DNA of 64,000 nt from a virus (taxonomy: Duplodnaviria > Heunggongvirae > Uroviricota > Caudoviricetes). Position 1 is the first letter of the stretch, and each line of letters opens with the position of its first letter. Below, in pieces: positions 2,125 to 46,164 of the stretch. Where the stretch lies: the IMG/VR virus record IMGVR_UViG_3300027977_000006; one strand, given 5' to 3'. Under the pieces are notes generated by a model. It did no database searches, was not told the DNA's origin, and saw nothing but the letters and a program-made list of their open reading frames with translations. Both the position numbers and the translations under genes were made by a program.

Positions 2125-3236
2125 TAGGTTTTCTTGTAATAAACTTTGTTATTATCACCGTTTTTAACTACTTTATTTGCACCAATTCTTTCAACAACAT
2201 TATTTTTTTTAGGTGTTGGTACATCTACAGAGAACCCTCGGTTTTTTATTTCTATTATGTCTTCTAATTGAATCTTTCCAGTTGGTATTACTGGTTCTCT
2301 ATCTTTATGTTCAATAACTGGTTCTTCAAATTCATTAGATTCTTCAACTGTTTCTGGTTCTTTTTCTTGTTGTTTTGAAGTTATTATTTTTAATGTCGAA
2401 TCTGGTTCAGGCTCAACTTTTTTTTTAGGTTCTAAAGGGTTAACATTACCTTCTAATTCAAATATTCTGTTTGTCATTAGAATCATCGCTATAGCCAATG
2501 GGTCAAAAACACATATCAATAAAAGTATTAATACATTAACTACGTTACCCATAGGTGAGCCTGTAAGTTCAGATATGTACTTAAGAGGCCCAACTTCAGC
2601 GGAAACTTCACTATTAGCGTTTAGTTCTATTTTTCTTGTTGAAAAAACACTTATTGAATCATAAAACACTGAGTTTTTAGCGTTCAAACCGTCAATTTCA
2701 TTTGATAGCTTTTGAATCTCGTCATTAGCCAATTTTATATCATTTCTAGCCTTATCTCTAGCTCTATTGCTAGTTGAATTATCCAATCTAACTTCTTGTG
2801 TATTTCTTAGATTTGTAAGCTGGTCTATTCGTTTTGTTTTACTATCAATTATTTTTTGATTGTCTTGTACATTCTTTTCAAACAAAGCTTTTTTAGAATC
2901 CAATACACCAACTTGACTTTCTTGTATTTCTAATTTATTGGCAGTTTTTTGATAGGCGTTAGATAAAAAACCATAAATACCAGCAGATGTAATCAACATC
3001 AAGACACCAACACTTATTGTTAAATAAAATTTTAGACCACCACCAATTCTAGACCAATATCTGTGTAAAGCAGTAGTTGTAACGACTTTACCAATCTCCA
3101 ACGCACTGGCCATTATTATAACAGCAGTACTCGCACCAGCAAACAACTGGCTTAAACCCCATACTGAAAAATAACCAGCACAACCAGCAACTATTAGTGC
3201 TAATAATAACATTACGTACCCAAACTTTAGTTTCAT
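2124..3236 (-). CDS. Multi-TM membrane protein with long coiled coil
   Basis: Three N-terminal TM helices, ~120 aa coiled coil, further TM (VLILLLICVFDPLAIAMIL). Confidence 0.75.
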   Translation of the reverse strand: MKLKFGYVMLLLALIVAGCAGYFSVWGLSQLFAGASTAVIIMASALEIGKVVTTTALHRYWSRIGGGLKFYLTISVGVLMLITSAGIYGFLSNAYQKTANKLEIQESQVGVLDSKKALFEKNVQDNQKIIDSKTKRIDQLTNLRNTQEVRLDNSTSNRARDKARNDIKLANDEIQKLSNEIDGLNAKNSVFYDSISVFSTRKIELNANSEVSAEVGPLKYISELTGSPMGNVVNVLILLLICVFDPLAIAMILMTNRIFELEGNVNPLEPKKKVEPEPDSTLKIITSKQQEKEPETVEESNEFEEPVIEHKDREPVIPTGKIQLEDIIEIKNRGFSVDVPTPKKNNVVERIGANKVVKNGDNNKVYYKKT

Positions 3237-3266
3237 ATTACTTGTTTATTTATTATAAATACCTAC

Positions 3267-3302
3267 AACGAATAAAAGGGTATTAATACCCTTTTATTCG
3301 TT
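3267..3302. terminator. Perfect 36-bp palindrome over the sigma stop codon (probable terminator)
   Basis: AACGAATAAAAGGGTATT|AATACCCTTTTATTCGTT. Confidence 0.7.
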
Positions 3303-4121
3303 AATTAAATTATATAAGTCGTGTGCGTTATGTCTTAATTTTCTTATTGCTTTTTCTTTTATTTGTCTTATTCTTTCTTTGGTCAAATTGTATCTCTCAC
3401 CAATAGCCTCTAGCGTCATAGGTCTGCAATCTGTGTTTATACCAAAATAAGACTCAATGATTACTTTTTCTCTAGGGTCTAATATAGACAAGATTCTATT
3501 TATTTCTTTTTTTACCCTTTCATCATTTTCTAAAGAATCCTCTTCATCTTCAAAAGGAATCAAATCAATCATTTCATCACCATCCTCATTTATAACTTCG
3601 TTAAGCGAAGTACATCTGGGATATGTTAATAAGGTGGCTACTTCATTGTCTTTATCAAATATCTCACCAATTATTGGCTCTCTTTCATTCTCTATTTCAA
3701 ACTTGATGATTTCTTTATTTAGATGAGAAATTTTACTTATTACGTTTGCTGGTAATCTAACAGTTCTAGCATTTTCATTTAAGCTATGTAATATTGTTTG
3801 TTTCACCCACCAAACAGCATAAGATATAAACCTAAAACCTTTTTTGTGGTCAAATCTTGTTGCGGCTTTTATCAAACCATAATTACCTTCATTTATTAAG
3901 TCAGACAACATAAGACCTTGACCTTGATATTCTTTTGCTATTGATACGACAAACTTTAAGTTTGCATTGACCAATTCATCAATAGCTTTTTGGTCACCTT
4001 TTTTTATTCTTTCTGCTAAATTTATTTCTTGTTCTTGTGTTAGAATAACTGATTTTCTAACATCTTTAAAATACTTCGCTATACTATCATCGTTATCAAA
4101 ATTTAAAAAAGTTTTACTCAT
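3294..4121 (-). CDS. rpoD: RNA polymerase sigma70 factor, RpoD/SigA-like, short Bacteroidetes type lacking region 1.1
   Basis: Region 1.2 SIAKYFKDV; region 2 ANLKFVVSIAK..DLINEGNYGLIKAATRFD..GFRFISYAVWW; region 4 TLEAIGERYNLTKERIRQIKEKAIRKLR. Confidence 0.93.
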   Translation of the reverse strand: MSKTFLNFDNDDSIAKYFKDVRKSVILTQEQEINLAERIKKGDQKAIDELVNANLKFVVSIAKEYQGQGLMLSDLINEGNYGLIKAATRFDHKKGFRFISYAVWWVKQTILHSLNENARTVRLPANVISKISHLNKEIIKFEIENEREPIIGEIFDKDNEVATLLTYPRCTSLNEVINEDGDEMIDLIPFEDEEDSLENDERVKKEINRILSILDPREKVIIESYFGINTDCRPMTLEAIGERYNLTKERIRQIKEKAIRKLRHNAHDLYNLINE

Positions 4122-7809: not shown

Positions 7810-8036
7810 GCGTTTGTTAATTTTTCATTTCCAGTCTCTAGGTCTTCTAGAGATTTTATTCTAAACTGATAATATGGATAATTGTTTTTTACATCGTGTT
7901 CTGTATATGTTTTCGTTTCAACATCCCACATTAAAAATCCATGTTTGCTTACATTCTCACCAAAATTCTGTTGTATTAGACTTCCAACATAACTTACTGG
8001 GATGATTTTTTTTATTTTAATTTTCTCTTTTTCCAT
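7806..8036 (-). CDS. sbcD: SbcD/Mre11 metallophosphoesterase, C-terminal fragment
   Basis: YVGSLIQQNFGE...HGFLMWD is the segment that normally follows GDIH in SbcD/gp47. Confidence 0.85.
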   Translation of the reverse strand: MEKEKIKIKKIIPVSYVGSLIQQNFGENVSKHGFLMWDVETKTYTEHDVKNNYPYYQFRIKSLEDLETGNEKLTNA

Positions 8037-8925
8037 ATTTTTTAATTTGTTTAAATAACTCGTATTTAAAATTTTTTTTATTTATTTCACACTCCCAAAA
8101 TCTAATTATATTATAATGATTATCTAAAGCTAATTTATTTTTAAATTCATCGTTTAATTTATTGTTTTTTTGTATTTCATTTAATAAATTTAAATCATTG
8201 TATTTTTTAGGGTTTCCATGCCAATAATCACCGTCAGCTTCAATTAAAAGATTTAAATCTTTTAAGTAAAAGTCGTAAGATTTAAATTTATTCTTTTCAT
8301 AAAAAATATCATATTGTGTTTCAAACTTAACCCCAGATTCAATTAATAATAAAGCTATTTTTTTCTCTATTTTAGTGTTTTTATTTTTTACTTTATTACC
8401 ATTTCTTAAAACACCAATAGATGTTAGACCATATTTTTTCAAACACGTTTCATCTCTTTTTATTGTTGTTTCTGGTAATCTACTAATGTTATCAACCCCA
8501 TATAATTCTAAATTTGTTTCTATTCTTTTTAAACAAGCTTCAGCATTTGTACCCACCCAAAAACCATTTTCTTCAAAAAAAATTTCTTGACCGATTTTTA
8601 CTTTTTCTTTATGTTCTTCGGTTTCCCATAATTTTTTCATTCTTTCAGAATTCCATTTTTTCCATTCATCAGTATGTTCAATATTATAAACTGGGTTACC
8701 TTCTTTAATATAAAGTTCTTTTTGATGAGAATCTTTACAAACTCTAGAACAGTATTTTTTACCATTATCTATTTTATTTTGTAACGTTTCAAACTCCTTG
8801 TTACATAGTAAACAATTAATTTTAACTCTATCAACTTTTAATTTTTTATAACCAATATGTTGACATTCTATCGAGCAATAAACTTTATTTTTTGTTTCTT
8901 TTTGACAATTTTTACAGTTATTCAT
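8017..8925 (-). mobile_element. Free-standing homing endonuclease, Vsr/DUF559-like (EDxHD) with N-terminal Cys-rich Zn modules
   Basis: CxxC..YCSxxC twice; TNLELYG/TCLKKYG repeats; YDFY..LLIEADGDYWHGNP..D..K..RFWE; lies between the two sbcD halves. Confidence 0.85.
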
Positions 8926-10977: not shown

Positions 10978-12765
10978 TTATCCGTTTTTTATAATATTAT
11001 AGTGATGCATCTCAATAAGCTGCTTAGCCTCTTTTTTAAGATACATTATTTGTATTTTTTGAAATGATTGTTTTTCTTTGTCCCAATACAAAACATAAAT
11101 CTGTCGACACTTTCTTTTAGGGAACTCTAACTCGTACATATAAGCATATACACTTAACTGCAAAGTGTACACAGACCATTGACAAGCTTGAAGATGCTCA
11201 AAAGGTTTTAATAGCGTTTCATAACCATATGGGTTATAAAAATTAAAAACACGATTTGTATTATGTGTTACAATAAAACTATGACCGAATAAAAATGTAT
11301 GTTTTGGGCTCTTGACCTCAATACATATCGTTGGCTCTGATTCTACTTTATTAACTGATACAATATTTATATGATGACAAAAACTATTTCTAAATTCAAT
11401 ATTTATATCTTGATTTCTAACTAAAAATGGGTTTAAATAATGTGAGGTAAAACAAACATCGTAAGCAATAAATGTTTTACCACTTAATTTTCGGTTAGTT
11501 GTTATGATTGTTGCTTTAAGCCCCAAGCTAGACACTAACATATTTATTGCATTGGCTTGCCATTTTCTGGTAGTTGACATGACAAACCTATTTCTTTTTT
11601 TATTATAATACCCATCAGCATCCATAAGCCCTCTTAACACATCTAATCTTTGATTGAAAGATGAATTTAAAAAAACATCTGGTAATTGTTTATTTTTTAA
11701 TACTCCAAGCTTATTCAATTCATGTGTCAAACCAAAAATAGTTCTAGTACTAGCCAAACCAGAACCACCACCAGAGATATCCTCCCCAATTTTATAACCT
11801 CTTTTTTCTATTTCAGACCACACATTTTCATCCATGTTTGTTATTTTCCCATCAGCTGAATGTCCATCACCTAACCAAACACCAAAAACATATGGGTCTA
11901 TTGGTAAATTAGCTATATCGATTTCTAATGGTCTAGCGCAAACAATTTTAGGTATTTTCCAAGAATATCTTTTTTTACCTTTTGGTAAAGTTTTCATGTA
12001 ATCAAATAACTCTATTGTTGTCATAACAACATCTTTATATTTTTTTTCTCTTAAAAAAGAAACTAACCATCTATGTTCAAAATCAGAAACTATTTTTTCA
12101 CCAGTATCAAAAGTAATTTCGTAACAATCTTTATTTTTAATGTCTGATATTGCTTTAATTTCTGTTTGACACCCATCACTATCAAAAACTTTGTCTTCTA
12201 ATGTCAATGTTCCCATTGTTTTCCACCCATTAGACGTAAATATTGGAGTGTTTAATGGTAACCCTTTATAATCAGCAACATCAAAAAAGACATCATTTAT
12301 ATCAATAATCAAGTCTGAAGTACCAGCAAGTTCGTATTGTTCAGAAAACAATATTCTTTCTGGCCACATCGCATCGCCTTCTTCAATATTCAACGCATTG
12401 TAACCGTCAATAACTTTTTGTTCAAAGATACCCTCTTCATTGTCTTCTGGAAAATACCACTTATTCGCAAGTAAATAACGCTCAACAATATCATGAACCT
12501 TGCTACCGTATACGTTAGCTTCATCATTCAACAACTGCCAATAATCCAAAATTTGTTGTTGAGACAAACCAATATAGCGTTCTTGTTTAACGTTATCAGG
12601 TTGTCTTGTAATAGCCAACGAAACACCTTCAGCATCAAAATGTGGTTCAATTGATGACAAAGTAGTTGTAACTGATTTGTATATCTTACCAGTCTCTCTA
12701 TGATGATATTTATGTTGTATCGGTTCTAAGTAAATTATTGATTCCCACTTTTTAATTTTAGCCAT
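10978..12765 (-). CDS. PD-(D/E)XK exonuclease-like protein containing an intein (start reassigned to MAKIKKW)
   Basis: SVTT, GSKVH, PERILF, LAGTSD, DYK|T, YTLQLSVYAY motifs; promoter 5 nt upstream of the ATG. Confidence 0.85.
   Translation of the reverse strand: MAKIKKWESIIYLEPIQHKYHHRETGKIYKSVTTTLSSIEPHFDAEGVSLAITRQPDNVKQERYIGLSQQQILDYWQLLNDEANVYGSKVHDIVERYLLANKWYFPEDNEEGIFEQKVIDGYNALNIEEGDAMWPERILFSEQYELAGTSDLIIDINDVFFDVADYKGLPLNTPIFTSNGWKTMGTLTLEDKVFDSDGCQTEIKAISDIKNKDCYEITFDTGEKIVSDFEHRWLVSFLREKKYKDVVMTTIELFDYMKTLPKGKKRYSWKIPKIVCARPLEIDIANLPIDPYVFGVWLGDGHSADGKITNMDENVWSEIEKRGYKIGEDISGGGSGLASTRTIFGLTHELNKLGVLKNKQLPDVFLNSSFNQRLDVLRGLMDADGYYNKKRNRFVMSTTRKWQANAINMLVSSLGLKATIITTNRKLSGKTFIAYDVCFTSHYLNPFLVRNQDINIEFRNSFCHHINIVSVNKVESEPTICIEVKSPKHTFLFGHSFIVTHNTNRVFNFYNPYGYETLLKPFEHLQACQWSVYTLQLSVYAYMYELEFPKRKCRQIYVLYWDKEKQSFQKIQIMYLKKEAKQLIEMHHYNIIKNG
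11260..12264 (-). mobile_element. Class 3 intein (335 aa, Gly start) with LAGLIDADG endonuclease
   Basis: GLPLNTPI..EHRW..GVWLGDG..RGLMDADG..PTICIEV..VTHN|T; WCT triad. Confidence 0.88.
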
Positions 12766-12770
12766 ATTCG

Positions 12771-12810
12771 CAAATATACGATAGTTTGTTATGGTATGCA
12801 AGTATTTATA
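12771..12810. promoter_or_regulatory. Back-to-back divergent promoters
   Basis: Minus CTTG-N20-TATATTTG (12771-12802) abuts plus-strand TATTTATA (12803-12810). Confidence 0.7.
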
Positions 12811-12822
12811 ATAAAAGTTACC

Positions 12823-13320
12823 ATGAGTCAATTAGTTAAAAAATTATTACGTGAAGCTTTAACTGTACCATCGTTTAGGGTACCAAAAGATATAAAATTT
12901 AGCAATGATGAAAAACTAGCAATAAAAAATGTTAGTTGGGAAGACCTTAAAATAGAAGATTTAGGTGGTTCTGGAAATATTGCTCATTTAGGTGTCAACC
13001 TACCATTTGAATCAGCCGCATCGGATGCTATTGTTGTTGATATTCAAGTGATTAAAGATATGATATATCAAATACATATGCATTTGCCAGAAGATTTAAG
13101 AGGATTAGGGTTAGGGTATAAAATATACAAAGCGGTTATACATGATTTAGGACATTTGTACTCTGGTAAAGGTAGACGATTAAACCAAATGGTTGCAAAA
13201 ATATGGGATAAATTAAAAAACGACCCAGATTTTGAATGTGTTTCAAGTGAATTAGGCGATTTGTGCATGATTAAAAATCATCCTAACAAAGAAGAACTAA
13301 CTCAATTCGTTGTAGGTTAA
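12823..13320 (+). CDS. GNAT-like acetyltransferase; only credible plus-strand gene (start MSQLVKKLLREAL)
   Basis: Acetyl-CoA motif A LPEDLRGLGLGYKIY and AKIWDKL; TATTTATA 12 nt upstream. Confidence 0.65.
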   Translation: MSQLVKKLLREALTVPSFRVPKDIKFSNDEKLAIKNVSWEDLKIEDLGGSGNIAHLGVNLPFESAASDAIVVDIQVIKDMIYQIHMHLPEDLRGLGLGYKIYKAVIHDLGHLYSGKGRRLNQMVAKIWDKLKNDPDFECVSSELGDLCMIKNHPNKEELTQFVVG

Positions 13321-14253
13321 TTGTCTGGCACTCATTAACAGTTTGACAATACCTTTTGGACCTAACTTTTCGTATATTTTTGATGGGTCGTAACCTTCAG
13401 GGCATTTGGCTAATTTTATCCTACCATAAAGATTTCCAAAATTTAGCTGTCTGTATAAATTTACCGCATCTTCATAAGCATCGTCATCAAGGACTATGAC
13501 TATGTAGCTAGTGGCTCTTTCATAAATCAAATCTAGTAGTTTTGGTGATATAAATTTACCCAATAAAGGTATTGAATTCGGTGTGACAATATGGTCAGTC
13601 ACACCTTCTACCAAATAAATGGTCGCATCAAAGTTTATTTTACCTTCATTAAAAATTATTTCTTGTTTTTCCGCTTCTGGGTTTAGATACTTTAATTTTG
13701 TTTTTTCCTTGGCGAACCATCTTGCAATAAAATAGTTTAATTTTCCTTCAGAATCGTAAGACGGAATGATTATTCTATTAAAGTATGTTCCTCGTATTGT
13801 GTAACCAATTTGGAACTCTTTTATAATCTCATCGGTTATTCCACGTTCTCTCAAGTATCTCAAAGCCAAATCAGCTTTGTAATCCATGCTTGAACACAAT
13901 GATAATTTTTTATAACCTTCTGGTAGTGTTACTATAATCTCTTTGTGTTCCTTGTCGTGTGTTTCATTAGCATCTGGCTTTACCAGCAAATAATCACGAA
14001 TATTCCTTGGTGATGCATACCTTTTAAGTAGCTTCATTACTGGGCCATGCATGTTGTTGGTGTCTTGACAAGCCCAGCATTTAAACACATTCCTTTGATA
14101 ATTAATCTCTAGATTGCCTTTTCCATCACCTTCTGGCATTCCTTTGTCCTCTGAACACGCAGGGCAATCAAAAGATACTTGACCAGTATCTTCATTATGT
14201 TTTCTATGTTCGCCTAGAAACCCTTCTAAAATGTTAACCAATAAATGTGACAT
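13297..14253 (-). CDS. dnaG: DNA primase (Zn finger + TOPRIM)
   Basis: CPAC..CWAC; YLRERGI; RIIIP; KYLNP; LVEGVTD; VLDDDA. Confidence 0.9.
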   Translation of the reverse strand: MSHLLVNILEGFLGEHRKHNEDTGQVSFDCPACSEDKGMPEGDGKGNLEINYQRNVFKCWACQDTNNMHGPVMKLLKRYASPRNIRDYLLVKPDANETHDKEHKEIIVTLPEGYKKLSLCSSMDYKADLALRYLRERGITDEIIKEFQIGYTIRGTYFNRIIIPSYDSEGKLNYFIARWFAKEKTKLKYLNPEAEKQEIIFNEGKINFDATIYLVEGVTDHIVTPNSIPLLGKFISPKLLDLIYERATSYIVIVLDDDAYEDAVNLYRQLNFGNLYGRIKLAKCPEGYDPSKIYEKLGPKGIVKLLMSARQLTYNELS

Positions 14254-14257
14254 TCCA

Positions 14258-14289
14258 CAAAGGTATTAAATAAAATCGAGAAAACCAAA
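14258..14289 (-). promoter_or_regulatory. Bacteroidetes-type promoter 4 nt from the primase ATG
   Basis: TTTG-N20-TACCTTTG-TGGA-ATG. Confidence 0.75.
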
Positions 14290-14327
14290 TAATATGGTTA
14301 TATAAATAGAGTAATAAAAAGAGATAA

Positions 14328-14984
14328 TTAATTATCTCTTTTTTTATTTTGATTAAACCATGCTAAACCACATGTATAAGCATCACTCATGTCAAAATTT
14401 TCTTTTTTTAATTTATTGTGTTTATCTAAAATCCATTTTATTTGGGGTTCTAAATCACATACTTTTTCAAATATTACCATTTTTTTATCCACATCGAATG
14501 GGTAATCTCCAAATAAAACTGGTTCGTTTTTGGCTATTTGTTTTTCTGATAACGGGGTGCCATCTTTTTTAGCTTTTCTAACAGCCATTAATTCTGGAAA
14601 CGCATATTTACGAGCATCATATGATGAAATAAAATCTGGTACTATACCTATTGTGTCAAACACAGATTTTGATATCATACCGTTAAAACGTAAAAGAGTT
14701 GCAATTGTATATACGTTATTTGATTGAAGAAGCGGTTCTTCAATGATAACTTTTGTAATACCAAAATCAGCGTATTTGTTTAAAAATTCAGTCTGGAAGA
14801 TTTCAACTTTTTTAAAAAGTTCTTCCATTTTGTTTTCTGGTTTTGGGTTTACCTTTGGGCTAACGTGATGTAATAATTTAAGTTCGCCATTATCTCCTAA
14901 ATCCTCAAACAAAGCGATGCCTATTGTGGATGTTGACACATCCAGACTTAACAAAAACTCTGGGTTATTATTTTTTTTATCCAT
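14328..14984 (-). CDS. RuvC-like Holliday junction resolvase (start reassigned to MDKKNNN)
   Basis: LSLDVSTSTIG, VIIEEP, FDMSDAY acidic catalytic motifs of the RNase H/RuvC fold. Confidence 0.8.
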   Translation of the reverse strand: MDKKNNNPEFLLSLDVSTSTIGIALFEDLGDNGELKLLHHVSPKVNPKPENKMEELFKKVEIFQTEFLNKYADFGITKVIIEEPLLQSNNVYTIATLLRFNGMISKSVFDTIGIVPDFISSYDARKYAFPELMAVRKAKKDGTPLSEKQIAKNEPVLFGDYPFDVDKKMVIFEKVCDLEPQIKWILDKHNKLKKENFDMSDAYTCGLAWFNQNKKRDN

Positions 14985-14994
14985 TCTAACTTGT

Positions 14995-15735
14995 TTATTT
15001 TTTATGCTTCCAGATAAAACCACCAGAAGTTTTAATTTTATTATTAGTACACTGTCTTATTGATTTAGCTGATAAGTTTAAAACATTTGCAGCTGTAGTT
15101 GCACTACCAAATTCCCGTATGAACTCACCGTTTTTGGTATATTGTTCAACTGGTTTAGCGTTTGGGTGTTTATCACCAGTAAATTGCCCTTTATGTGCCA
15201 CACTTAGCTTTTTCTTTAGTTCGATTGCTTTTTTTTCACCATAAAAGTCACCATAAGTTTTACCATCTTTTTCAGATATACGACCTTTACATGATTCACT
15301 TAATTTTTTTTTGTGTTCTTCACTTCTTGGTTCACCTGTATTCATCCAAGAAAGTGGTTTACCTTTTCTTATTTCAGACATTTGTTTTATTTGTTCTGGT
15401 GTTTTTTTAACACCTAAAGAACTACCAGCAATTTTACATATATTATAACCTAAATCAACGTTATATGATTCGTACAAATCTAAATAATATTGTTCTCTAA
15501 GTAATAATGTTTCTTTTGTAAATTCTTCAATTATCTCTAATATTTCAAAAACAAATGAGTCTTCACCATATTTATTCCACGCTCTTTGTAAATGTCTAGA
15601 ATGGTGTTTATTTTGTCTTAAATCATTTAAATGATATGACCATCTTTTTTTAAAACCACATTTATTTCCAGTACTACCAATATAAACTTTATTGTTAGCC
15701 AGATTAACTATTTTATAAACACCATTATTTTTCAT
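14995..15735 (-). mobile_element. GIY-YIG homing endonuclease with NUMOD3/NUMOD1-like DNA-binding modules
   Basis: GVYKIVN..KVYIGS..RW..H..LQRAWNKYG..REQYYLD..GYN; SEEHKKKLS repeats; KPVEQY..GEFIREF..GGFIWK. Confidence 0.9.
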
Positions 15736-15874
15736 AAAAATATTTATTTAATAATCTTTCAATAAATTCCGATTTATTATTAGTTTCATAATTAATTTTT
15801 TCATATAATTCTCTAGATATAGTTACACCTAATCTAATTTTTTTATCTTCTTCTTTTAATTTTGGTCTTGCCAT
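15725..15874 (-). CDS. 49 aa ribbon-helix-helix-like DNA-binding protein, not in the ORF track (MARPKLKEEDKKIRLGVTISRELYEKINYETNNKSEFIERLLNKYFYEK)
   Basis: Hand translation; alternating beta strand RLGVTI, helix, NKSEFIE helix; TATTTATA upstream; stop overlaps the GIY-YIG start. Confidence 0.72.
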   Translation of the reverse strand: MARPKLKEEDKKIRLGVTISRELYEKINYETNNKSEFIERLLNKYFYEK

Positions 15875-15937
15875 AATATTTATCTTTATTATAAATATGT
15901 TGATAAAACCAAAAAGTTGTATTTAAATGAAATTTTT

Positions 15938-15985
15938 TCATGTTGACACATCCAAGGCCAATATAAAATTTGGTTCTTTTTGCAT
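15938..15985 (-). pseudogene. Orphan 5' stub of the resolvase gene (MQKEPNFILALDVST*)
   Basis: Paralogous to the resolvase N-terminus (NPEFLLSLDVST); 15-bp direct repeat ATGTTGACACATCCA at 14930-14944 and 15940-15954. Confidence 0.8.
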
Positions 15986-16029
15986 ATATTTTTAATACCA
16001 ATCTAAGAACCGTTGTTGAAAGGTAAAGA

Positions 16030-17232
16030 TTATAAATTTATTTTTACACTTAAAGCCAAAAATTCATTTATATTTTTTGTAACTTGTCTATCAGTTTTAG
16101 CAACAGCTAATAAATTACCCAAGTTATCATATAACCCAACTTCCGAAATTCTGACAACATCTGAACCTGAGAATGTTGGATTTGTGGATATTCCAAATTC
16201 ACCTCTAGCAGCAATACATGTTATATTTTGATATATTGATGTTGATATGCTGTCAAATGTTACAGTAGCAGCTGTTAAAGTAACTGAATCATAATCTGTA
16301 ATAATCTGAGGATTCGTGATGACCACAAAGCCTTTATCAAGATATGCAATACCAACAATGGTGTCAGCAGTGGTTGCGAGACTGCTATTCGTTTGTAAGT
16401 TGTAAAGTTGTTTACCATTAACACTAAAAGGTTTTGTAGTACCATAACCAGTTGCCCAGCTTAATGAACCAGAACCGCCATTTGGTGTTGTTATGTTATC
16501 AGAAAACAACATTGCAATGTTATCATCTAGATAATCAGTTACTACTGATGTGTCTCTTATGTTAGCGTCTTGAACTAATAAAGAACTTCCATCATTTTGG
16601 AATGTACTGTATATGGTATATGTACCAGCACTAGTGGGTAATTCTATTTTTACTGTTTTACCATCAATACACTCACCATAATTAGCATTGTTTATTCCTA
16701 AAACTAATATATTTGTTTGTGCTATTGCACTCAATGCTGTATCTGAATAACCACCACTAGCAAAAGTAATTCCAGTATATGTCTCGTCATCAGATGAATT
16801 CAAAGGTAAACCAAATGAATAAAATAGATTCACCAAAGCGTCTGTATTATAATCATTTCTGTCAATTAATACTTGCGTTAAATTACTACCGCTAACAGTT
16901 GTAAATCCGTTTGAAAGCAAATCCGTAGATATTGTGATTGATTGCTGTTCTACTGGTTTTCTTAATAAACCACTAGGATTTACAATTATTGGAGATTTTA
17001 TTCTGGCGTTTTGAGCTGTGCTATTACTAAAAGTTGCGTTTGCACCAATTTCACCAGCTTCAGCTGGAATTTCACCAGTTGATAAAGTCAATGGAACGTA
17101 ATAGTTTGCGTCTGAATCCCCCAAAGAAAATGTGGCGATAAGCGCATTGTTTGTAGATACCATTTTTTGCCTACCTAGTGGTGTTAACTTAGCTGTTAAC
17201 GTAATTGTATTTGCTGTTGATAAAAATCCCAT
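16030..17232 (-). CDS. Virion protein, tail-collar/fibre-base-like
   Basis: AKLTPLGRQKM..FSLGDSD at the N-terminus, RISEVGLYDNLGNLLAVAK at the C-terminus; Thr/Ser rich. Confidence 0.6.
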   Translation of the reverse strand: MGFLSTANTITLTAKLTPLGRQKMVSTNNALIATFSLGDSDANYYVPLTLSTGEIPAEAGEIGANATFSNSTAQNARIKSPIIVNPSGLLRKPVEQQSITISTDLLSNGFTTVSGSNLTQVLIDRNDYNTDALVNLFYSFGLPLNSSDDETYTGITFASGGYSDTALSAIAQTNILVLGINNANYGECIDGKTVKIELPTSAGTYTIYSTFQNDGSSLLVQDANIRDTSVVTDYLDDNIAMLFSDNITTPNGGSGSLSWATGYGTTKPFSVNGKQLYNLQTNSSLATTADTIVGIAYLDKGFVVITNPQIITDYDSVTLTAATVTFDSISTSIYQNITCIAARGEFGISTNPTFSGSDVVRISEVGLYDNLGNLLAVAKTDRQVTKNINEFLALSVKINL

Positions 17233-17245
17233 ATCTTAATTATCT

Positions 17246-19381
17246 TTAAAAATCCATACTTAACTCAAGCATTATTGTATTTCCTGGAAGCAACGTCACT
17301 GGTTTACTTAATTTACCAATACAAACAAGGTTTTGTAAATTATCATAAATACCAACTTCTGTAACTCTAATATTAGGTGGATTGGTAGCTGGGTCTGTGC
17401 TTCTAGTTGGATTTGATGTCAAGTTAAACAAGCTTGTATTAACTCTGATATCAAAAATTGTTTTATATATTGTGGCACCAATATATGTTTCTAAATTACC
17501 ATAGAAAAATCTTTCATCACCAAACTGTAAATAACTTGGTTGATTGGTTTGTGGTAAGTTTAACAAAGGTACTAAATTAAATGTGGTTGCTGATGCAGCT
17601 TTTAAAGAATCCAAAACAAATCCAGTTGTTGCTGGTGACTGGTTTTCTAATAATTTAGGGTCGATTGTCTTTCCAGTGTTTACTGTTATAGCATTGCTAG
17701 TAAAATCATATGCCTTCCATGCAGCTGGGTCTGGTCTTTGTGTAGAACCAGAAACAACTTGGTATAATAATTTGAAGTTTGTTGCATAAAAACCTAACCC
17801 ATCATAACCAACATTTTCAATCTTACGCATGTAAGGTAATAAATCAGTACCATTTATTCTAAATGCAACATCTTTGGCCGTTGATGTAACGTTATCAACT
17901 TTAACATAGTTTTGACAAGGCAAACTTGATGTTATTCCGCTAACACCAGATACTTCCAAAGAATATGTTAAATACATTGTTTGGTTTGAGTTCAAAACAC
18001 CTGTTGATGTTCCACCAGAAGGTGATTGTAATGTTGCCGCCAATTCTGGTAACGTCCAGTTTCTGTTGGATTTGTAAGACATAGCCGCAACAATTTCATC
18101 ATCGTCAATTACAATCATTTTCAATTGTGGAAATACTTTACCAACAACTAAAGGTGTCGTGTTTGCTGTTGATATAAAAGACGGGTCTTCAATCAAGTCA
18201 ATATATTCAATATCGCTGGTTCCAATTTTTTGAGTTGCCCCAGTGGCTATAAAATCCATTCCCATTGATGTACCACTAGCGGTTGAATAGCCATCTCTGT
18301 GATACATTAAATTAGGTATATGTAGTTTTATATATTTGTTGTTTGTTGCGTCAACATAGAAAAACTCACCATATAAGTTTGATATAGCGTTGTTAGTATA
18401 ATGTATAATTGATATAGATTTTGAAACATCATCAAAATAACTTACTCCTGGGTCGTTACACTTAATTTGTGTTTCGCTAGTTCCAGTAGATACGCAAAGA
18501 TATTCAAAATATGGGTTTTTGGTACCCAAGTATGGGTATGAACCAAAATATGTATAATCTTCATATGTGCCACCAGACATACCAGCTAAGTTTTCACACC
18601 ACACATTATTCATGTTCCAAACTGGAACATCATGACATGTCACATTTACTGATGAATTAAATGATAAAGTACCAGTATCCCAGTAAGCTGTTGTTGTACC
18701 TGTTGATATTGTGTTATAAATCTCACCACCTCTATAAATCAAAACTTGTGAAGATTGTGAATCACCAGAAAGGTTTGGTAGATTTCTATCCAATGTAGCT
18801 GTAGTTCCAGTCAAACCTTGAACCTTATACCATAGATTTGGCGTGGCTATTGTTGTTTCGTCAGCTGAAATAGGGCCGACAATTGAATTGGTCAATTTAA
18901 GTAATATTATATCACCAACACTAACAACTGGCGAACCACTCAATGTTAATGTACTAGTACCAGACAATGTAGCATTTGCTACTGGTTGATAATATGGTGT
19001 TAAAGTTGTTGACAAGTCAGTTGTAAAACCAGTAATATTATTTGTAAAAAACCCTCTTTCAGCTGCCTCATTGTTAACAATCGCCTTTACAACATTCATG
19101 TTTGAAGCGTTAATTGCTTGATAATTTGAGGTTGAGGTGCTGGTTGTAATAAAGCTTTTTATGTTTGGTTGTCTGTCAACTGGTCTTAAGACTTTACTAC
19201 TAGCTGATAGTGTTACATTTGTTGGATTAGCGTCTACTATCGCTTCTCTATCGTAATTTATTTCAGAATCGCCAATAGCCCAAAAACTAAAATTTAATTG
19301 GCCTAGAGAAAGTTGTTCTCTTCCTTTTTCAGTTAATTTAATGCTCACAAATGGATTCGTACTGGTTATAATGTAGCTCAT
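17246..19381 (-). CDS. Virion protein, paralog of 16030..17232
   Basis: IKLTEKGREQL..WAIGDSE and RVTEVGIYDNLQNLVCIGK match the neighbour's terminal motifs. Confidence 0.6.
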   Translation of the reverse strand: MSYIITSTNPFVSIKLTEKGREQLSLGQLNFSFWAIGDSEINYDREAIVDANPTNVTLSASSKVLRPVDRQPNIKSFITTSTSTSNYQAINASNMNVVKAIVNNEAAERGFFTNNITGFTTDLSTTLTPYYQPVANATLSGTSTLTLSGSPVVSVGDIILLKLTNSIVGPISADETTIATPNLWYKVQGLTGTTATLDRNLPNLSGDSQSSQVLIYRGGEIYNTISTGTTTAYWDTGTLSFNSSVNVTCHDVPVWNMNNVWCENLAGMSGGTYEDYTYFGSYPYLGTKNPYFEYLCVSTGTSETQIKCNDPGVSYFDDVSKSISIIHYTNNAISNLYGEFFYVDATNNKYIKLHIPNLMYHRDGYSTASGTSMGMDFIATGATQKIGTSDIEYIDLIEDPSFISTANTTPLVVGKVFPQLKMIVIDDDEIVAAMSYKSNRNWTLPELAATLQSPSGGTSTGVLNSNQTMYLTYSLEVSGVSGITSSLPCQNYVKVDNVTSTAKDVAFRINGTDLLPYMRKIENVGYDGLGFYATNFKLLYQVVSGSTQRPDPAAWKAYDFTSNAITVNTGKTIDPKLLENQSPATTGFVLDSLKAASATTFNLVPLLNLPQTNQPSYLQFGDERFFYGNLETYIGATIYKTIFDIRVNTSLFNLTSNPTRSTDPATNPPNIRVTEVGIYDNLQNLVCIGKLSKPVTLLPGNTIMLELSMDF

Positions 19382-39883: not shown

Positions 39884-41083
39884 TTAATTATTTATATATT
39901 CAAATTTAAAACCTTTATAAGTTTTATTTCTACCTTTACATACTGCTAATACAGATGTTATTTTACCATCTATATATTCAGCAGCTGATTTTAATGAATC
40001 AAACTCGATAATATCACCGTTATTATCAATCCTTCTCACTTTTCGTTGATTGTTACCTTTTTTAATATCAAATGTGTATTCTTCATTCTCCCATCTAAAA
40101 ATATCAATAAAAGTGTTGTTATTTTTACATTTTCTTCTGATTACAGTTGGGTTTAAACCGATTTGTTCACTAGCTTCAAATACATTATTGAAAACTAATT
40201 CTATATTACTATCAATATCTTTTTTGTAATAAACTAATTTAGAAATTCTAATAATACCATTTTTAGTTGTTTTAAACCCTCTGGATGAATCATCAGTAGG
40301 TTTTTTATAATCTGACCGTTTAGTTTTACTATAGACTAATTCACTATCATTGTATCTAAAATAATAGCCTTTATATGTACCACCATATTTAATACATCGG
40401 TATATTAATGATTTAGTTTTAAATTCATATTTATTAAGTATATCATTAATATTTAAAATATCTATTTCTTCTAATGTTTTAGAATCAATCATAACTATTA
40501 AACGTTTAACTCTAGATTTAAAATTTTCTTTCATATTATCTATACGCTCTTTAGTAAATTTCTTACCTTTATTCCAATGAACTCCATTAATTTTAGCTAA
40601 ATAAGATGGATTAATTTCTATTGGTCTACCATACATAGGGTTTTTACTACCTTTAGTATTTTCACTATGTTTTTCCCTTATTTCTTCTTTTTTAGGATTA
40701 TTATTAAAAGTATCACCACCAGTTCCACCTATAACAATATTAGTTAATAAACCACCTTCAGTAAATCGACCATAATAACCAATTAATTCTTTCTCAACTT
40801 TAAAAGCTTCATCTTCATTATCTGTTTCAAATATAACCTTAAAGTTAGGTTTGAAACCTAATCCAATTAATTTTTTAATCGTATTAGTTTTATGTGGGTT
40901 TATTTTACTACTGCGATTATCTTTTAATACATCAATATAATGTGTTAAATGTCGTTTTCTATTATTTTTAGCGTTATAATCACCTTTACCTATATAAAAA
41001 GGTTTGTAATTTATTTCAGAATAATTATTACTATAATCACCCATTACTCTATCATCTAATAAAATGTAAATATAATATCTCAT
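39884..41083 (-). mobile_element. Free-standing GIY-YIG (LEM-3-like) homing endonuclease with NUMOD modules between the nrdA halves
   Basis: YYIYIL..PFYIGKG..R...H..EAFKVEKELI..G.LTN; NPMYG; repeated F.S...A....C.G....YKG..F modules; likely start MRYY at 41083. Confidence 0.85.
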
Positions 41084-41090
41084 ATTAATA

Positions 41091-41133
41091 AATATACAGT
41101 ACATAGTGTACTTTATACTATGTACTGTATATT
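41091..41133 (-). promoter_or_regulatory. 20-bp inverted repeat overlapping the TATTTAT motif of the nrdA endonuclease
   Basis: AATATACAGTACATAGTgTA-ctt-TAtACTATGTACTGTATATT, one mismatch. Confidence 0.75.
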
Positions 41134-41142
41134 TTTTTTTTA

Positions 41143-42624
41143 TTAATTAAAATTTGTATCTAACTCATCATCCTCTAGTAAATCACAAGCCATTACATAA
41201 CCTCTATTTTTAGTGAATATCCTATGGTCTGGTGTACAAATAATCCTAACATTTTTTTCTTCATCAATAATTTCAAGTACTTCAGCATTATCTTTAGTTT
41301 TTATAGCACCTAATATTGGTTGAAAAGTATTATCTTGACTTAAAACTAAAATATTTTTATGTTTTTCATAAAGTTTAACTACTTCTTCCATAGTTATTTT
41401 TTCAATACCACCGTTTTCATTAATGATTGTTATAATTGATTCACCATTTAAACAACACAAGTTGGATTGACAAATAGGGCCTATATTGGATTGCATATTT
41501 CTTTTGTTCGCATTGTCTTTAAACATAACATACGGTCTGCCACTTTCAACTTGTGCTTTAATTATGGCGTCAAATATTTCTTTTGGATTCACCTTTTTAC
41601 CAATTCCCAAATCAACCGCTTTTTGATACTCTGTTTCAAATTCTTCACCCCAAAGAAGATGCAGTGGTGTTAAACCAGCTTTATTAATATCATTTGGACA
41701 GAACAAATACCAATCTTCACTTTTTTCAAGCTTTTGCATAAACAAGTCGTTTATAACAACAGCAGTAAATAAATCACGTGTTCTTAATTGTTCATCACCA
41801 ATTGGTAAAGTAAGGTCTAAGAAATCAAAAATGTCTCTATGCCAAACTGATAAATAAAGAGCGCAACTTCCAGAACGTGAGCCTTGTTTGTAGAAACGCA
41901 TTTTTGATTGAACCATATCTGCAAGTCTTACAACACCTCCAGCGTTGCCTTGGAATGAATGAACCAAGCTGTCTTTGCTTCTAAGTGGGTCTATAAGTAA
42001 ACCAATACCAGAACCCTCTTTTGATGCAGACGCTATCTTTGTTAAAGTAGCTTCAATACCTTCAAAAGAATCTTCTTCCAAATGTGTTAGATTACAACTA
42101 ACCATACCATTTCTTTTGTCCACACCAGCGTTTGTATATGTTGGTGTTGCAAAGTTGGCTCTTTTGCTTTTTAATTCTTTTAAAAGTTCTTTTCTAGCTT
42201 CTTCATCATCATCGTGCAAATGATAAGCAACACGCTCATACATGCATGAAGGAAGTTCAATTGGTGCCTTGTTGTTATCTCTTTTTGAATACTTCGAAAG
42301 AAATGTTGTCGCAGCAAAAAAGTCATAAGTCAAATCAATTGGTTGTAGTTCTTTACCTACCAATTTTGATTGTCTACTTAATAGTATTCTACCACCTAAT
42401 AAGGAGTAGTCTGGATGCTGAATGATTTTATCAGCAGCTTTAAAAGCGATGATTTCATCTATTTCTGTTGTTGTAATGTTATCGCTTATAAGCGGCATAA
42501 CTTCCAAAAATAAAGAATCGGCATCAACATTTAGTCCAGTTGATTGTGTTTTAATCCTAGTTAGGATTTTGTTTGGCATAAACGCTTGTGTCGTTTTGTC
42601 TCGTTTAACTATTCTCATTCCCAT
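41143..42624 (-). CDS. nrdA: Class Ia ribonucleotide reductase alpha, N-terminal part fused to split intein IntN
   Basis: ATP-cone start IVKRD, ATPTYTNAG, SCNL, GSGIG, RSGSCALYL..WH, ESGRPY..FKD, QSNLC|CLNGES. Confidence 0.93.
   Translation of the reverse strand: MGMRIVKRDKTTQAFMPNKILTRIKTQSTGLNVDADSLFLEVMPLISDNITTTEIDEIIAFKAADKIIQHPDYSLLGGRILLSRQSKLVGKELQPIDLTYDFFAATTFLSKYSKRDNNKAPIELPSCMYERVAYHLHDDDEEARKELLKELKSKRANFATPTYTNAGVDKRNGMVSCNLTHLEEDSFEGIEATLTKIASASKEGSGIGLLIDPLRSKDSLVHSFQGNAGGVVRLADMVQSKMRFYKQGSRSGSCALYLSVWHRDIFDFLDLTLPIGDEQLRTRDLFTAVVINDLFMQKLEKSEDWYLFCPNDINKAGLTPLHLLWGEEFETEYQKAVDLGIGKKVNPKEIFDAIIKAQVESGRPYVMFKDNANKRNMQSNIGPICQSNLCCLNGESIITIINENGGIEKITMEEVVKLYEKHKNILVLSQDNTFQPILGAIKTKDNAEVLEIIDEEKNVRIICTPDHRIFTKNRGYVMACDLLEDDELDTNFN
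41146..41454 (-). mobile_element. Split intein N-fragment (103 aa)
   Basis: CLNGES..CTPDHRIFTKNRGYVMACDLLEDDEL (blocks A and B). Confidence 0.92.
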
Positions 42625-46108: not shown

Positions 46109-46164
46109 TTTTTTTTTTTTATCTTTAAAAACGTTGTTATGGATAAATATCACAAAGTAGTCGC

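What the first reader, a model, noticed from the sequence alone, without database searches (positions are those of the whole stretch)
14930..15985. RHH + GIY-YIG cassette inserted at the resolvase catalytic motif, with a replacement N-terminus
Seen, in transcription order: an orphan stub MQKEPNFILALDVST* (15985-15938); TATTTATA (15890-97); an unannotated 49 aa ribbon-helix-helix ORF; an overlapping GIY-YIG endonuclease; then a full resolvase starting MDKKNNNPEFLLSLDVST. A 15-bp direct repeat coding DVST brackets the insert, while the codons before it have diverged. Inference: the element targets the conserved first catalytic Asp region, rebuilds the gene with its own recoded 5' end (which also removes the cut site), puts the resolvase under its promoter and carries a dedicated small repressor. 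This would be a splicing-free, self-regulating homing cassette, and is the best candidate here for an undescribed system.
Basis: partly seen in the sequence, partly recalled or inferred. Interest (0 to 1): 0.82.

Follow-up and report, generated by a model that had tools for sequence, protein, structure and literature searches.

The report
Homing endonuclease cassette with spare gene head
A selfish nuclease gene and a small DNA-binding partner gene sit inside the start of a phage DNA-repair gene and keep it working by bringing a replacement start, which leaves the original 15-codon start as a dead stub; related cassettes do the same to the neighbouring primase gene in related phages.

Summary
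The nearest relative found (L096) has an empty site, and its resolvase begins with exactly the window's 15-codon stub joined directly to STIG.

Relative to L096 the window carries a 1,010-bp insert bounded by the 15-nt repeat. The insert holds a conserved promoter-like block, a 49-aa ribbon-helix-helix (RHH) gene, an I-TevI-like GIY-YIG/NUMOD endonuclease, and a foreign replacement for resolvase codons 1-13.

- **Distribution:** 62 of 77 related viral loci are empty. Three other lineages carry the same cassette at the same codon, each with its own stub, one of them decaying.
- **Second target:** a related RHH+GIY-YIG cassette, in the opposite orientation, does the same to the primase gene. L046 against L001 shows a recent insertion.
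- **Ancestral form:** stub-less intergenic versions also exist (L032).

Not shown: the cut site, immunity of the occupied allele, repression by the RHH protein, and promoter capture, which cannot be general.

The closest precedent is the mitochondrial mobile endonuclease ORFs that replace gene 3' ends. This scan earlier found a LAGLIDADG case on another phage (e1-5678144). I rate it a new variant of a known kind, of moderate to high interest.

The parts
16030..17232 (-). Upstream 400-aa gene of unknown function. It forms the left homology flank. In empty-site relatives it is followed directly by the resolvase.
   Evidence: ORF, with no Pfam or PHROG family. A homologue sits 11-61 nt upstream of the resolvase in 62 of 77 related loci.
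15938..15985 (-). Stub: the native first 15 codons of the resolvase plus a stop, left behind by the insertion.
   Evidence: Identical in protein to the resolvase head of the empty-site relative L096, and 14/15 identical to L001. Equivalent stubs occur in L002, L069, L055 and, decayed, in L014.
15940..15954 (.). Stub-side copy of the 15-nt box that encodes (L)DVST.
   Evidence: family D2.
15875..15939 (-). Left end of the cassette, carrying the conserved promoter-like block (TATTTATA at 15890-15897).
   Evidence: The block ACTTTTT, about 12 nt, GATATTTATAATAAA, about 6 nt, ATTATGG is shared by 13 cassettes at three sites, including one without the RHH gene. The left junction is shared with L002, L014 and L069.
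15725..15874 (-). 49-aa ribbon-helix-helix protein gene, the first gene of the cassette.
   Evidence: Pfam RHH_1 scores only E=0.017, below the cutoff. The AF2 model has an extended segment followed by two helices. The structure search returns almost only RHH proteins, up to Z 5.1. It is 86-94% identical in same-site cassettes and 45-55% in primase-site ones. It has 180 homologue clusters and is always followed by an endonuclease-like ORF.
14995..15735 (-). 246-aa GIY-YIG homing endonuclease with NUMOD3 and NUMOD1 DNA-binding modules.
   Evidence: Pfam GIY-YIG 8e-10 and NUMOD1 5.5e-8. phrog_314 1.2e-39. I-TevI catalytic domain 1mk0, E=8e-13. Columns Y7, Y18, G20, R31, H35, H44 and E81 are invariant across nine relatives.
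14945..14984 (-). Replacement (foreign) resolvase head: codons 1-13 and part of 14, imported with the cassette.
   Evidence: About half the nucleotides differ from the stub and from L096, while the sequence from the box onwards matches L096. It resembles the heads of other occupied alleles.
14930..14944 (.). Gene-side copy of the 15-nt box.
14328..14984 (-). RuvC-like Holliday junction resolvase, the target gene, intact.
   Evidence: phrog_159 2.7e-8. AF2 pLDDT 91. The top Foldseek hits are RuvC, with E 2.4e-6 and target-normalised TM-score up to 0.77. D15, E82 and E83 are invariant.
13297..14253 (-). DnaG-type primase. In this window it is the empty allele of the second target of the cassette family (junction equivalent near codon 25).
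   Evidence: phrog_47 3.2e-36. L046, L015 and L050 carry RHH+GIY-YIG cassettes inside this gene's head, each with a stub.

Best explanation
This is a free-standing homing-endonuclease cassette that sits inside a coding sequence without any splicing.

**What is there.** The mobile unit, about 1 kb, holds four things in order: a phage-type promoter block, a small RHH protein gene, an I-TevI-like GIY-YIG/NUMOD endonuclease gene, and a foreign copy of the first 13 or so codons of the RuvC-like resolvase. It lies just after the codons for the conserved LDVST strand, which carries the first catalytic Asp. The native head is left upstream as a dead 15-codon stub. The imported head, with its own ATG, keeps the resolvase whole.

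**How it most likely spreads (inferred).**
1. The endonuclease cuts cassette-free resolvase alleles near this site during mixed infection.
2. The break is repaired from the occupied genome. The stub and upstream gene serve as left homology, and the box and gene body serve as right homology, so the cassette and the spare head are copied in.
3. The diverged spare head stops the broken end from pairing on the wrong side of the cassette. It may also protect the resident allele from cutting.

**Likely origin (inferred).** The arrangement probably arose from an ordinary intergenic free-standing endonuclease gene, when a break end was joined illegitimately next to the cassette.

**The RHH protein (inferred).** It is most likely the cassette's own transcription regulator, an autorepressor at the conserved promoter block. 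I put this at about 50%.
For: **Parts**
- The endonuclease is a bona fide GIY-YIG/NUMOD protein with an intact catalytic set, close to I-TevI.
- The target is a RuvC-fold protein. Its invariant Asp lies at the end of strand 1, next to the junction.

**Presence and absence at a fixed site**
- 62 of 77 related loci are empty.
- L002, L014, L069 and the window are occupied at the same codon and share a common left junction.
- L055-57 carry an endonuclease without the RHH gene at the same place, with a stub.
- L004/5 keep only a remnant of the endonuclease.

**Near-isogenic pairs**
- Window against L096: primase 97% identical. The flanks align up to the box on both sides, with a 1,010-bp insert between. 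The stub equals L096's gene head.
- L046 against L001, at the primase: the flanks are identical apart from one mismatch. The stub matches the native head. The imported head is visibly diverged (about two-thirds identical by eye), and identity returns to 100% about 18 nt past the junction.

**Lateral spread**
- The RHH gene and promoter are about 95% identical in nucleotides between phages whose flanking proteins are only 62-85% identical.

**Stubs are not conserved as genes**
- In L014 the stub has the Asp changed to Tyr, and L004 and L032 have no stub.

**Ancestral form**
- L032 has stub-less intergenic endonuclease genes at both sites.

**RHH**
- The fold, the conservation and the strict adjacency to endonuclease-like ORFs are supported.

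**No splicing element**
- No intron model and no intein domain was found.
Against: - No cleavage, homing or DNA-binding experiment exists. The cut site is unknown.
- The occupied gene keeps the 15-nt box and all native downstream sequence, so immunity must rest on the roughly 21 recoded bases upstream or on something else. A CNNNG cleavage-motif test was inconsistent across occupied alleles (my reading).
- The RHH assignment by sequence is below the Pfam threshold, and CopG scores only E=0.39. Structural Z values are low in absolute terms.
- No operator is defined. A TATC-N1-2-GATA inverted repeat next to the promoter is perfect in only 6 of 12 cassettes.
- The cassette endonucleases are only 67-69% identical, so some spread may be old vertical descent.
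- The promoter 11-mer is not enriched in the window as a whole.
Confidence: 0.85

Rival explanations
1. The stub architecture is a neutral scar. An ordinary intergenic endonuclease gene was copied into a broken genome, one end was joined illegitimately, and the duplicated head gives the element no advantage and no immunity.
For: - Stub-less intergenic versions exist at both sites (L032).
- Stubs decay or are lost.
- Primase-site junctions differ by a few nucleotides between lineages (my reading).
Against: - The same architecture recurs at two genes and in at least six lineages, with three cassette types (RHH+GIY-YIG in both orientations, and GIY-YIG alone).
- It was also seen with an unrelated LAGLIDADG element elsewhere in this scan.
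- The L046/L001 pair shows the stub form itself moving into a new genome.
Confidence: 0.25
2. The RHH protein is not a repressor of the cassette. Instead it is a partner of the endonuclease at the DNA target. It could help target recognition, or it could mask the nearly intact resident site and act as an immunity factor.
For: - The two ORFs overlap or abut, by 11 nt in the window and 4 nt in L081 and L084, which suggests coupled synthesis.
- The resident gene keeps the box and the whole downstream half of the presumed site.
- Some relatives add a 30-aa tail to the RHH domain.
Against: - L055-57 hold the same site, with a stub and the same promoter block, but without any RHH gene.
- The 49-aa protein is a bare RHH domain with no partner-binding tail.
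- The RHH sequence is much the same (45-55% identical, same invariant residues) at the resolvase and primase sites, whose target sequences differ.
Confidence: 0.2
3. The head duplication arose in place, as a tandem duplication that later diverged, and the endonuclease cassette landed between the copies. On this reading the head now in use was not imported.
For: Both copies encode the same strand, and the 15-nt box is identical in the two copies.
Against: - In the window/L096 pair, and still more in the L046/L001 pair, the flanks are nearly or fully identical while the head in use is strongly diverged. That is incompatible with divergence in place over the same time.
- The head in use resembles the heads of other occupied lineages.
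Confidence: 0.04
4. The RHH and GIY-YIG genes form a toxin-antitoxin-like or defence module, or a regulator of the resolvase, and are not a mobile homing element.
For: An RHH gene that precedes and overlaps a nuclease gene is the layout of many type II toxin-antitoxin operons. Many structural neighbours of the model are RHH antitoxins.
Against: - The nuclease has the complete I-TevI-type homing-endonuclease architecture.
- The unit is present or absent at precise sites inside conserved genes of otherwise collinear phages.
- The RHH protein lacks a toxin-binding tail.
Confidence: 0.04

Closest known systems
Mitochondrial mobile endonuclease ORFs (mORFs) that create 'gene hybrids': Allomyces macrogynus atp6; Glomus atp6, atp9, cox2, nad3 (PMC3630166)
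   Same: - An endonuclease ORF sits inside a protein-coding gene with no intron or intein.
- It brings a foreign copy of the displaced gene end, which is now the expressed one.
- The native end stays as a remnant that matches close relatives far better than the imported copy does.
   Different: - Here the 5' end of the gene is replaced, not the 3' end.
- The endonuclease is a separate gene and is not fused in frame to the host gene.
- The host is a phage.
- The cassette has its own promoter block and a second gene (RHH).
- It can lie in either orientation.
Free-standing phage homing endonucleases and intronless homing (T4 SegA-G, MobA-E; review PMC2988022)
   Same: - A GIY-YIG/NUMOD enzyme related to I-TevI and the Seg proteins.
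- The targets are conserved replication and repair genes next to the endonuclease gene.
- Flanking markers are co-converted.
- Stub-less intergenic relatives (L032) look exactly like this class.
   Different: - T4-type elements lie between genes, or split a gene into two working halves (mobE in nrdA, mobA in gene 39/60). The review does not use the word 'duplication' at all.
- Here the insertion lies inside the reading frame and the gene is kept whole by a duplicated, foreign head.
I-TevI autorepression (PMC2988022)
   Same: - The endonuclease gene is driven by a phage-type promoter close to its start.
- A DNA-binding function is presumed to limit its expression.
   Different: - I-TevI represses itself through its own DNA-binding domain.
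- Here a separate 49-aa RHH gene is the candidate regulator. Its function is untested.
Earlier finding of this scan, e1-5678144: a LAGLIDADG cassette with a spare gene head in another phage
   Same: - The native gene start is stranded as a stub.
- A foreign start imported with the endonuclease now heads the gene.
   Different: - The endonuclease family differs (LAGLIDADG, not GIY-YIG).
- The target gene and the cargo (a methyltransferase) differ.
- There is no RHH partner.
- I did not re-examine that locus.

Membership tests
GIY-YIG homing endonucleases (I-TevI / Seg type) | GIY-YIG catalytic domain with the conserved Tyr, Tyr, Arg, His, Glu and Asn set | tested here: met
   Pfam PF01541 8e-10. 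I-TevI catalytic domain 1mk0 at E=8e-13 over residues 4-100. Y7, Y18, G20, R31, H35, H44 and E81 are invariant in nine relatives.
GIY-YIG homing endonucleases (I-TevI / Seg type) | Modular C-terminal DNA-binding region (NUMOD modules or a helix-turn-helix) | tested here: met
   NUMOD1 5.5e-8, I-HmuI_NUMOD-like 3e-6 and NUMOD3 2e-4.
GIY-YIG homing endonucleases (I-TevI / Seg type) | Presence/absence polymorphism at a fixed site among otherwise collinear genomes | tested here: met
   for the resolvase site. for the primase site.
GIY-YIG homing endonucleases (I-TevI / Seg type) | Site-specific cleavage of the cassette-free allele, and biased inheritance in mixed infection | not testable with these tools
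   This needs the purified enzyme and a homing assay.
Ribbon-helix-helix (CopG/Arc/MetJ) DNA-binding proteins | Strand-helix-helix fold of about 45 residues | tested here: met
   The AF2 model (pLDDT 71) has an extended segment at 11-20 and helices at 21-30 and 34-47. Nearly all of the top 50 matches in the Foldseek-independent structural search are RHH proteins, for example the PutA RHH domain at Z 5.1 and rmsd 1.1 A over 38 residues. Foldseek found nothing.
Ribbon-helix-helix (CopG/Arc/MetJ) DNA-binding proteins | Significant sequence match to an RHH family model | tested here: inconclusive
   Pfam RHH_1 gives E=0.017 and 15.5 bits, against a cutoff of 20.5. The profile against CopG 1b01 gives E=0.39 over the full length. 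JGI names some homologues as CopG/Arc/MetJ regulators.
Ribbon-helix-helix (CopG/Arc/MetJ) DNA-binding proteins | Dimer binding to a repeated operator, with repression | not testable with these tools
   There is only a candidate: a TATC-N1-2-GATA inverted repeat abutting the promoter block, perfect in 6 of 12 cassettes.
Mitochondrial-type 'gene-end replacing' mobile endonuclease ORFs | Endonuclease ORF inside a coding gene, with an imported duplicate of the displaced gene end that is the functional one | tested here: met
   Here it is the 5' end of the gene.
Mitochondrial-type 'gene-end replacing' mobile endonuclease ORFs | The native remnant matches close relatives much better than the imported copy does | tested here: met
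   The stub is identical to the L096 head, while about half the bases of the imported head differ. In L046 the stub is identical to L001 and the imported head is visibly diverged (about two-thirds identical by eye).
Mitochondrial-type 'gene-end replacing' mobile endonuclease ORFs | 3'-end (C-terminal) replacement, often with the endonuclease ORF fused in frame to the host gene | tested here: not met
   The 5' end is replaced, and the endonuclease is a separate ORF, antisense to its target at the primase site.
Group I/II intron or intein as carrier of the endonuclease | A ribozyme fold or a Hint splicing domain around the endonuclease | tested here: not met
   No Rfam family at E<=1 in 13200-17300. 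No Hint or intein Pfam domain in the ORFs. The stub ends in a stop codon and the gene has its own ATG.
RuvC-like Holliday junction resolvase (the target gene) | RNase H-like RuvC fold, with an acidic residue at the end of strand 1 and a second after strand 4 | tested here: met
   pLDDT 91. Strand 1 spans residues 9-16 and ends at D15, and strand 4 spans 76-83 with E82/E83. The RuvC hits have E 2.4e-6 to 1.5e-5. D15, E82 and E83 are invariant. Calling D15 the first catalytic Asp rests on established RuvC knowledge, not on a test here.

The most novel reading that the evidence does not exclude
RHH+GIY-YIG cassettes would be a widespread and distinct class of 'gene-head-replacing' homing elements in uncultured large phages.

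- By carrying a diverged spare head, a distance-cutting free-standing endonuclease makes its insertion site coincide with its cut site. That gives it intron-like drive without any splicing.
- The dedicated RHH protein would set the level or timing of expression, and perhaps shield the nearly intact resident site.
- The same trick would let the family jump between target genes (resolvase and primase).
Probability: 0.35. Interest if true: 0.75.

Novelty: new variant of a known kind. Interest (0 to 1): 0.62.

Why it matters
Homing endonuclease genes are thought to enter coding sequences only when they sit inside an intron or intein, or when they split the gene into two working halves. This locus, its relatives at a second gene and an earlier LAGLIDADG case point to a third route in phages, in which the element brings a spare copy of the gene's head.

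- **Annotation and alignments.** The route accounts for short orphan ORFs and odd, variable N-termini next to endonuclease genes. Both mislead annotation and alignments.
- **Gene mosaics.** It creates mosaic essential genes through imported heads and co-conversion.
- **A testable question.** It offers near-isogenic empty and occupied pairs. With these one can ask whether putting the insertion site on top of the cut site raises homing efficiency.
- **A possible new control mode.** If the RHH protein regulates the cassette, it would be a separate-gene way to control a homing endonuclease, unlike the self-repression of I-TevI.

Tried and rejected
- **RNA hairpin over the promoter and start codon, as in T4 endonuclease control.** The window folds into one (z = -2.0; inverted repeat I3). 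RNAalifold on 12 cassettes does not recover it. Pair counting shows no compensatory change, and paired cells equal the shuffled mean. It is not supported as a conserved feature.
- **Promoter motif enrichment.** The 11-mer with one mismatch occurs 19 times against 14.2 expected, so it is not significant window-wide. The block is nevertheless conserved across cassettes.
- **Sigma-70 promoters and intrinsic terminators in 14200-16200.** Nothing above chance.
- **I-TevI-style CNNNG cleavage motif lost in occupied alleles.** This holds for the window and L002, but L014 and L069 keep such a motif (my reading). I dropped it.
- **Co-conversion tract downstream of the box in the window.** The mismatch cluster seen against L001 disappears against the closer L096.
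- **Translational bypass between the two boxes, or site-specific recombination at them.** I rejected both. There are two intact intervening genes, the resolvase has its own start, and the cassette has no recombinase.
- **Cultured relatives.** tblastn against cultured phages found no match for the resolvase or the RHH protein.
- **Own genome.** No whole genome is held for this window.
- **Literature.** Searches for phage cases of target-gene head duplication found none in the library.
- **Python box.** It was lost. Planned counts over all 80 loci, dN/dS and trees were not done.
Full report
**1. Observation**

On the minus strand the window reads as follows:
- a 400-aa gene (17232-16030);
- a 44-nt spacer;
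- a 15-codon ORF ending in a stop (15985-15938);
- a 63-nt spacer that contains TATTTATA (15897-15890);
- a 49-aa ORF (15874-15725);
- a 246-aa ORF that overlaps it by 11 nt (15735-14995);
- after 10 nt, a 218-aa ORF from the ATG at 14984 to 14328;
- a primase (14253-13297).

The repeat finder reports the direct repeat 14930-14963 / 15940-15973. The spacing is 1,010 nt, the first 15 nt are identical and the whole 34 nt is 74% identical.

**2. Identity of the parts**

- **Endonuclease.** The 246-aa protein is a GIY-YIG endonuclease with NUMOD3 and NUMOD1 modules (Pfam 8e-10; phrog_314 1.2e-39). Its N-domain matches the I-TevI catalytic domain at E=8e-13. The catalytic columns are invariant among nine relatives.
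- **Resolvase.** The 218-aa protein matches phrog_159, a RuvC-like resolvase. It folds with pLDDT 91, and its best structural matches are RuvC proteins. D15 closes strand 1 and is invariant, as are E82 and E83. The insertion therefore lies right after the codons for the strand that carries the first acidic active-site residue. That assignment rests on RuvC knowledge.
- **RHH protein.** By sequence the 49-aa protein is only a sub-threshold RHH_1 match (E=0.017; CopG E=0.39). Its model has an extended segment followed by two helices. A structure search that does not depend on Foldseek returns almost only RHH proteins, including PutA, AmrZ, Arc, omega, NikR and many antitoxins, at Z up to 5.1.
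- **No splicing element.** No Rfam family was found, so no intron, and there is no intein domain.

**3. Empty sites**

The resolvase protein recovered 80 related viral loci.
- In 62 of the 77 loci where both genes were found, the 400-aa gene is followed by the resolvase after 11-61 nt.
- L001/L046 (92% identical resolvase) begin with the stub sequence, with one substitution, joined directly to STIG.
- A pattern scan of metagenome contigs found L096. Its primase is 97% identical to the window's. Its resolvase is near-identical over residues 19-168.
- The L096 resolvase starts with exactly the 15 stub residues fused to STIG.

At the nucleotide level the window's stub side matches L096 from the upstream gene to the end of the box. 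The gene side matches L096 from the box onwards. In the 21 nt before the gene-side box, 10 bases differ. So the window equals an L096-like genome plus a 1,010-bp insert that includes a foreign gene head.

**4. The same cassette in other lineages**

- L002, L014 and L069 carry RHH+GIY-YIG at the same place. Their RHH proteins are 86-94% identical to the window's and their endonucleases 67-69%.
- They share the left junction and the sequence after it. The window has a deletion of about 12 nt there.
- Each has a different stub. The L014 stub has lost the Asp and ends early.
- L055-57 have a more distant GIY-YIG gene without RHH at the same place, with a stub and the same promoter block.
- L004/5 keep only the endonuclease C-terminus and an imported-type head. 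L032-36 have a different GIY-YIG gene directly after the upstream gene's stop, with no stub.
- The RHH gene and promoter are about 95% identical in nucleotides across phages whose flanking proteins are 62-85% identical. This argues for lateral spread.
- The endonuclease is conserved in its catalytic domain and diverged in its DNA-binding end.

Together these states look like the usual invasion, decay and loss cycle of homing endonuclease genes.

**5. A second target**

In L046 a related cassette (RHH about 55% identical, endonuclease about 42%) lies antisense between the resolvase and the primase. It is preceded by a 25-codon stub identical to the native primase head. It is followed by a full primase with a diverged head.

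Against L001, which is empty there, the flanks are identical apart from one mismatch. Only the imported head is diverged, and identity returns to 100% about 18 nt past the junction. This is a recent transfer of the cassette and spare head as one unit.

L015 and L050 show the same layout with their own stubs. L032 has the cassette but no stub. Lookups of distant RHH homologues found the same primase-site pair in contigs of about 384 kb.

Because the cassette is antisense at this site, reading of the target gene from the cassette promoter cannot be a general feature.

**6. The RHH partner**

- The profile found 180 homologue clusters of 48-85 aa.
- In all 13 places examined, the RHH gene is followed, with a 4-nt overlap or a 1-nt gap, by an ORF of 200-254 aa. 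It is GIY-YIG/NUMOD in two families and Pfam-less in a third. At a second locus on one of those contigs (L090) a NUMOD-only ORF follows a similar small ORF.
- All cassettes share the block ACTTTTT, about 12 nt, GATATTTATAATAAA, about 6 nt, ATTATGG. It carries the TATTTATA motif that first-stage notes list upstream of many genes of this phage. I could not show window-wide enrichment.
- A TATC-N1-2-GATA inverted repeat abuts the block in 6 of 12 cassettes. It is a candidate operator only.

A regulatory role for the RHH protein is an inference from its fold, its position and the I-TevI precedent of autorepression (PMC2988022).

**7. Mechanism**

*Shown:*
- the anatomy;
- site-specific presence and absence;
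- the foreign origin of the head now in use;
- the native origin of the stub;
- recurrence at two genes;
- decay states.

*Inferred:*
- The enzyme cuts empty alleles near the junction.
- Repair uses the stub side and the gene side as homology arms, so the cassette is always copied.
- The diverged head prevents pairing on the wrong side and may give immunity.
- The form arose from a stub-less intergenic ancestor, as in L032, by illegitimate joining of a break end beside the cassette.
- Recombination across the 15-nt box could excise the element precisely and restore a native allele.

Both boxes in the window share a GTG codon. L096 has GTA at this position, and none of the other sequences aligned has GTG. 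This hints that both boxes were copied from one template. That would fit a cut upstream of the box, but it is only a hint.

**8. Comparison and novelty**

The closest published precedent is the mitochondrial mobile endonuclease ORFs. They insert into atp6, atp9, cox2 and nad3 with a foreign C-terminal copy and leave the native C-terminus as a remnant (PMC3630166). The present case mirrors this at the 5' end. It occurs in phages, as a separate two-gene cassette with its own promoter, and in either orientation.

Phage literature in the library describes intergenic or gene-splitting endonuclease genes, but not head duplication. The scan had already recorded the same architecture with a LAGLIDADG endonuclease in another phage (e1-5678144), so this is not the first sighting within the scan.

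I class it as a new variant of a known kind. The RHH partnership and the two-target family are the new elements.

**9. Limits**

- The script machine was lost. Counts over loci come and from reading alignments. No trees or dN/dS were computed.
- The phage is uncultured. The best cultured primase match is a Flavobacterium phage at 31% identity.

Noticed in passing
window 14328-14480 versus L096:2930-3072: The last 50 or so residues of the resolvase are mosaic. L096 matches the window almost perfectly up to about residue 168. It then switches to the C-terminal type seen in L014, L015 and L069. This marks a recombination breakpoint inside the gene.
   Followed up: partly
L050:4720-5505: A further GIY-YIG/NUMOD1 endonuclease gene lies between the resolvase and the primase stub, so this locus carries two endonuclease genes in tandem. 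L081-L083 likewise have two adjacent GIY-YIG genes.
   Followed up: partly
L015:5374-5613 and L032:4646-4885: In these primase-site cassettes the RHH protein is 79 aa long. It has a 30-residue C-terminal tail that overlaps the endonuclease start. The function of the tail is unknown.
   Followed up: no
L089:935-1084 and 2501-3395; L090:174-1038: RHH homologues also sit at other loci, next to an Acb1-like 2',5'-RNA-ligase-fold gene. Their partners there are a 247-aa ORF without any Pfam family, or a 241-aa ORF with NUMOD modules only. One small 49-aa ORF (identity not checked) in L089 has no partner, at the place where L090 has a full pair.
   Followed up: partly
window 39884-41104 and 8017-8925: Two more endonuclease-like genes lie in the window. 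One (phrog_314) sits next to a ribonucleotide reductase large-subunit fragment at 41143-42624. The other is HNH/endonuclease-like and lies near the SbcC-like gene. First-stage notes describe these as gene-splitting insertions. If so, one genome shows several ways of tolerating endonuclease genes inside other genes.
   Followed up: partly
window 10978-12831 and 43607-46153: Two large ORFs give strong matches to PHROG families labelled 'terminase large subunit', alongside exonuclease or DnaB-helicase matches. A first-stage note places an intein in the first of them. The terminase-labelled matches may therefore reflect intein or endonuclease inserts rather than terminases.
   Followed up: no
window 16030-17232 and 17246-19381: The 400-aa and 711-aa proteins upstream have no Pfam family, and no PHROG family at the thresholds used. 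They share a similar N-terminal segment, so they are probably paralogous structural proteins.
   Followed up: no
window 12796-13320 (+): This is the only plus-strand gene in the neighbourhood. It is convergent with the primase and overlaps its 3' end by 24 nt. It is conserved in L096 and has no family match.
   Followed up: no
window 15860-15914: A 24-nt imperfect inverted repeat (79% complementary) encloses the cassette promoter motif and the RHH start codon. It is not conserved in related cassettes.
   Followed up: yes
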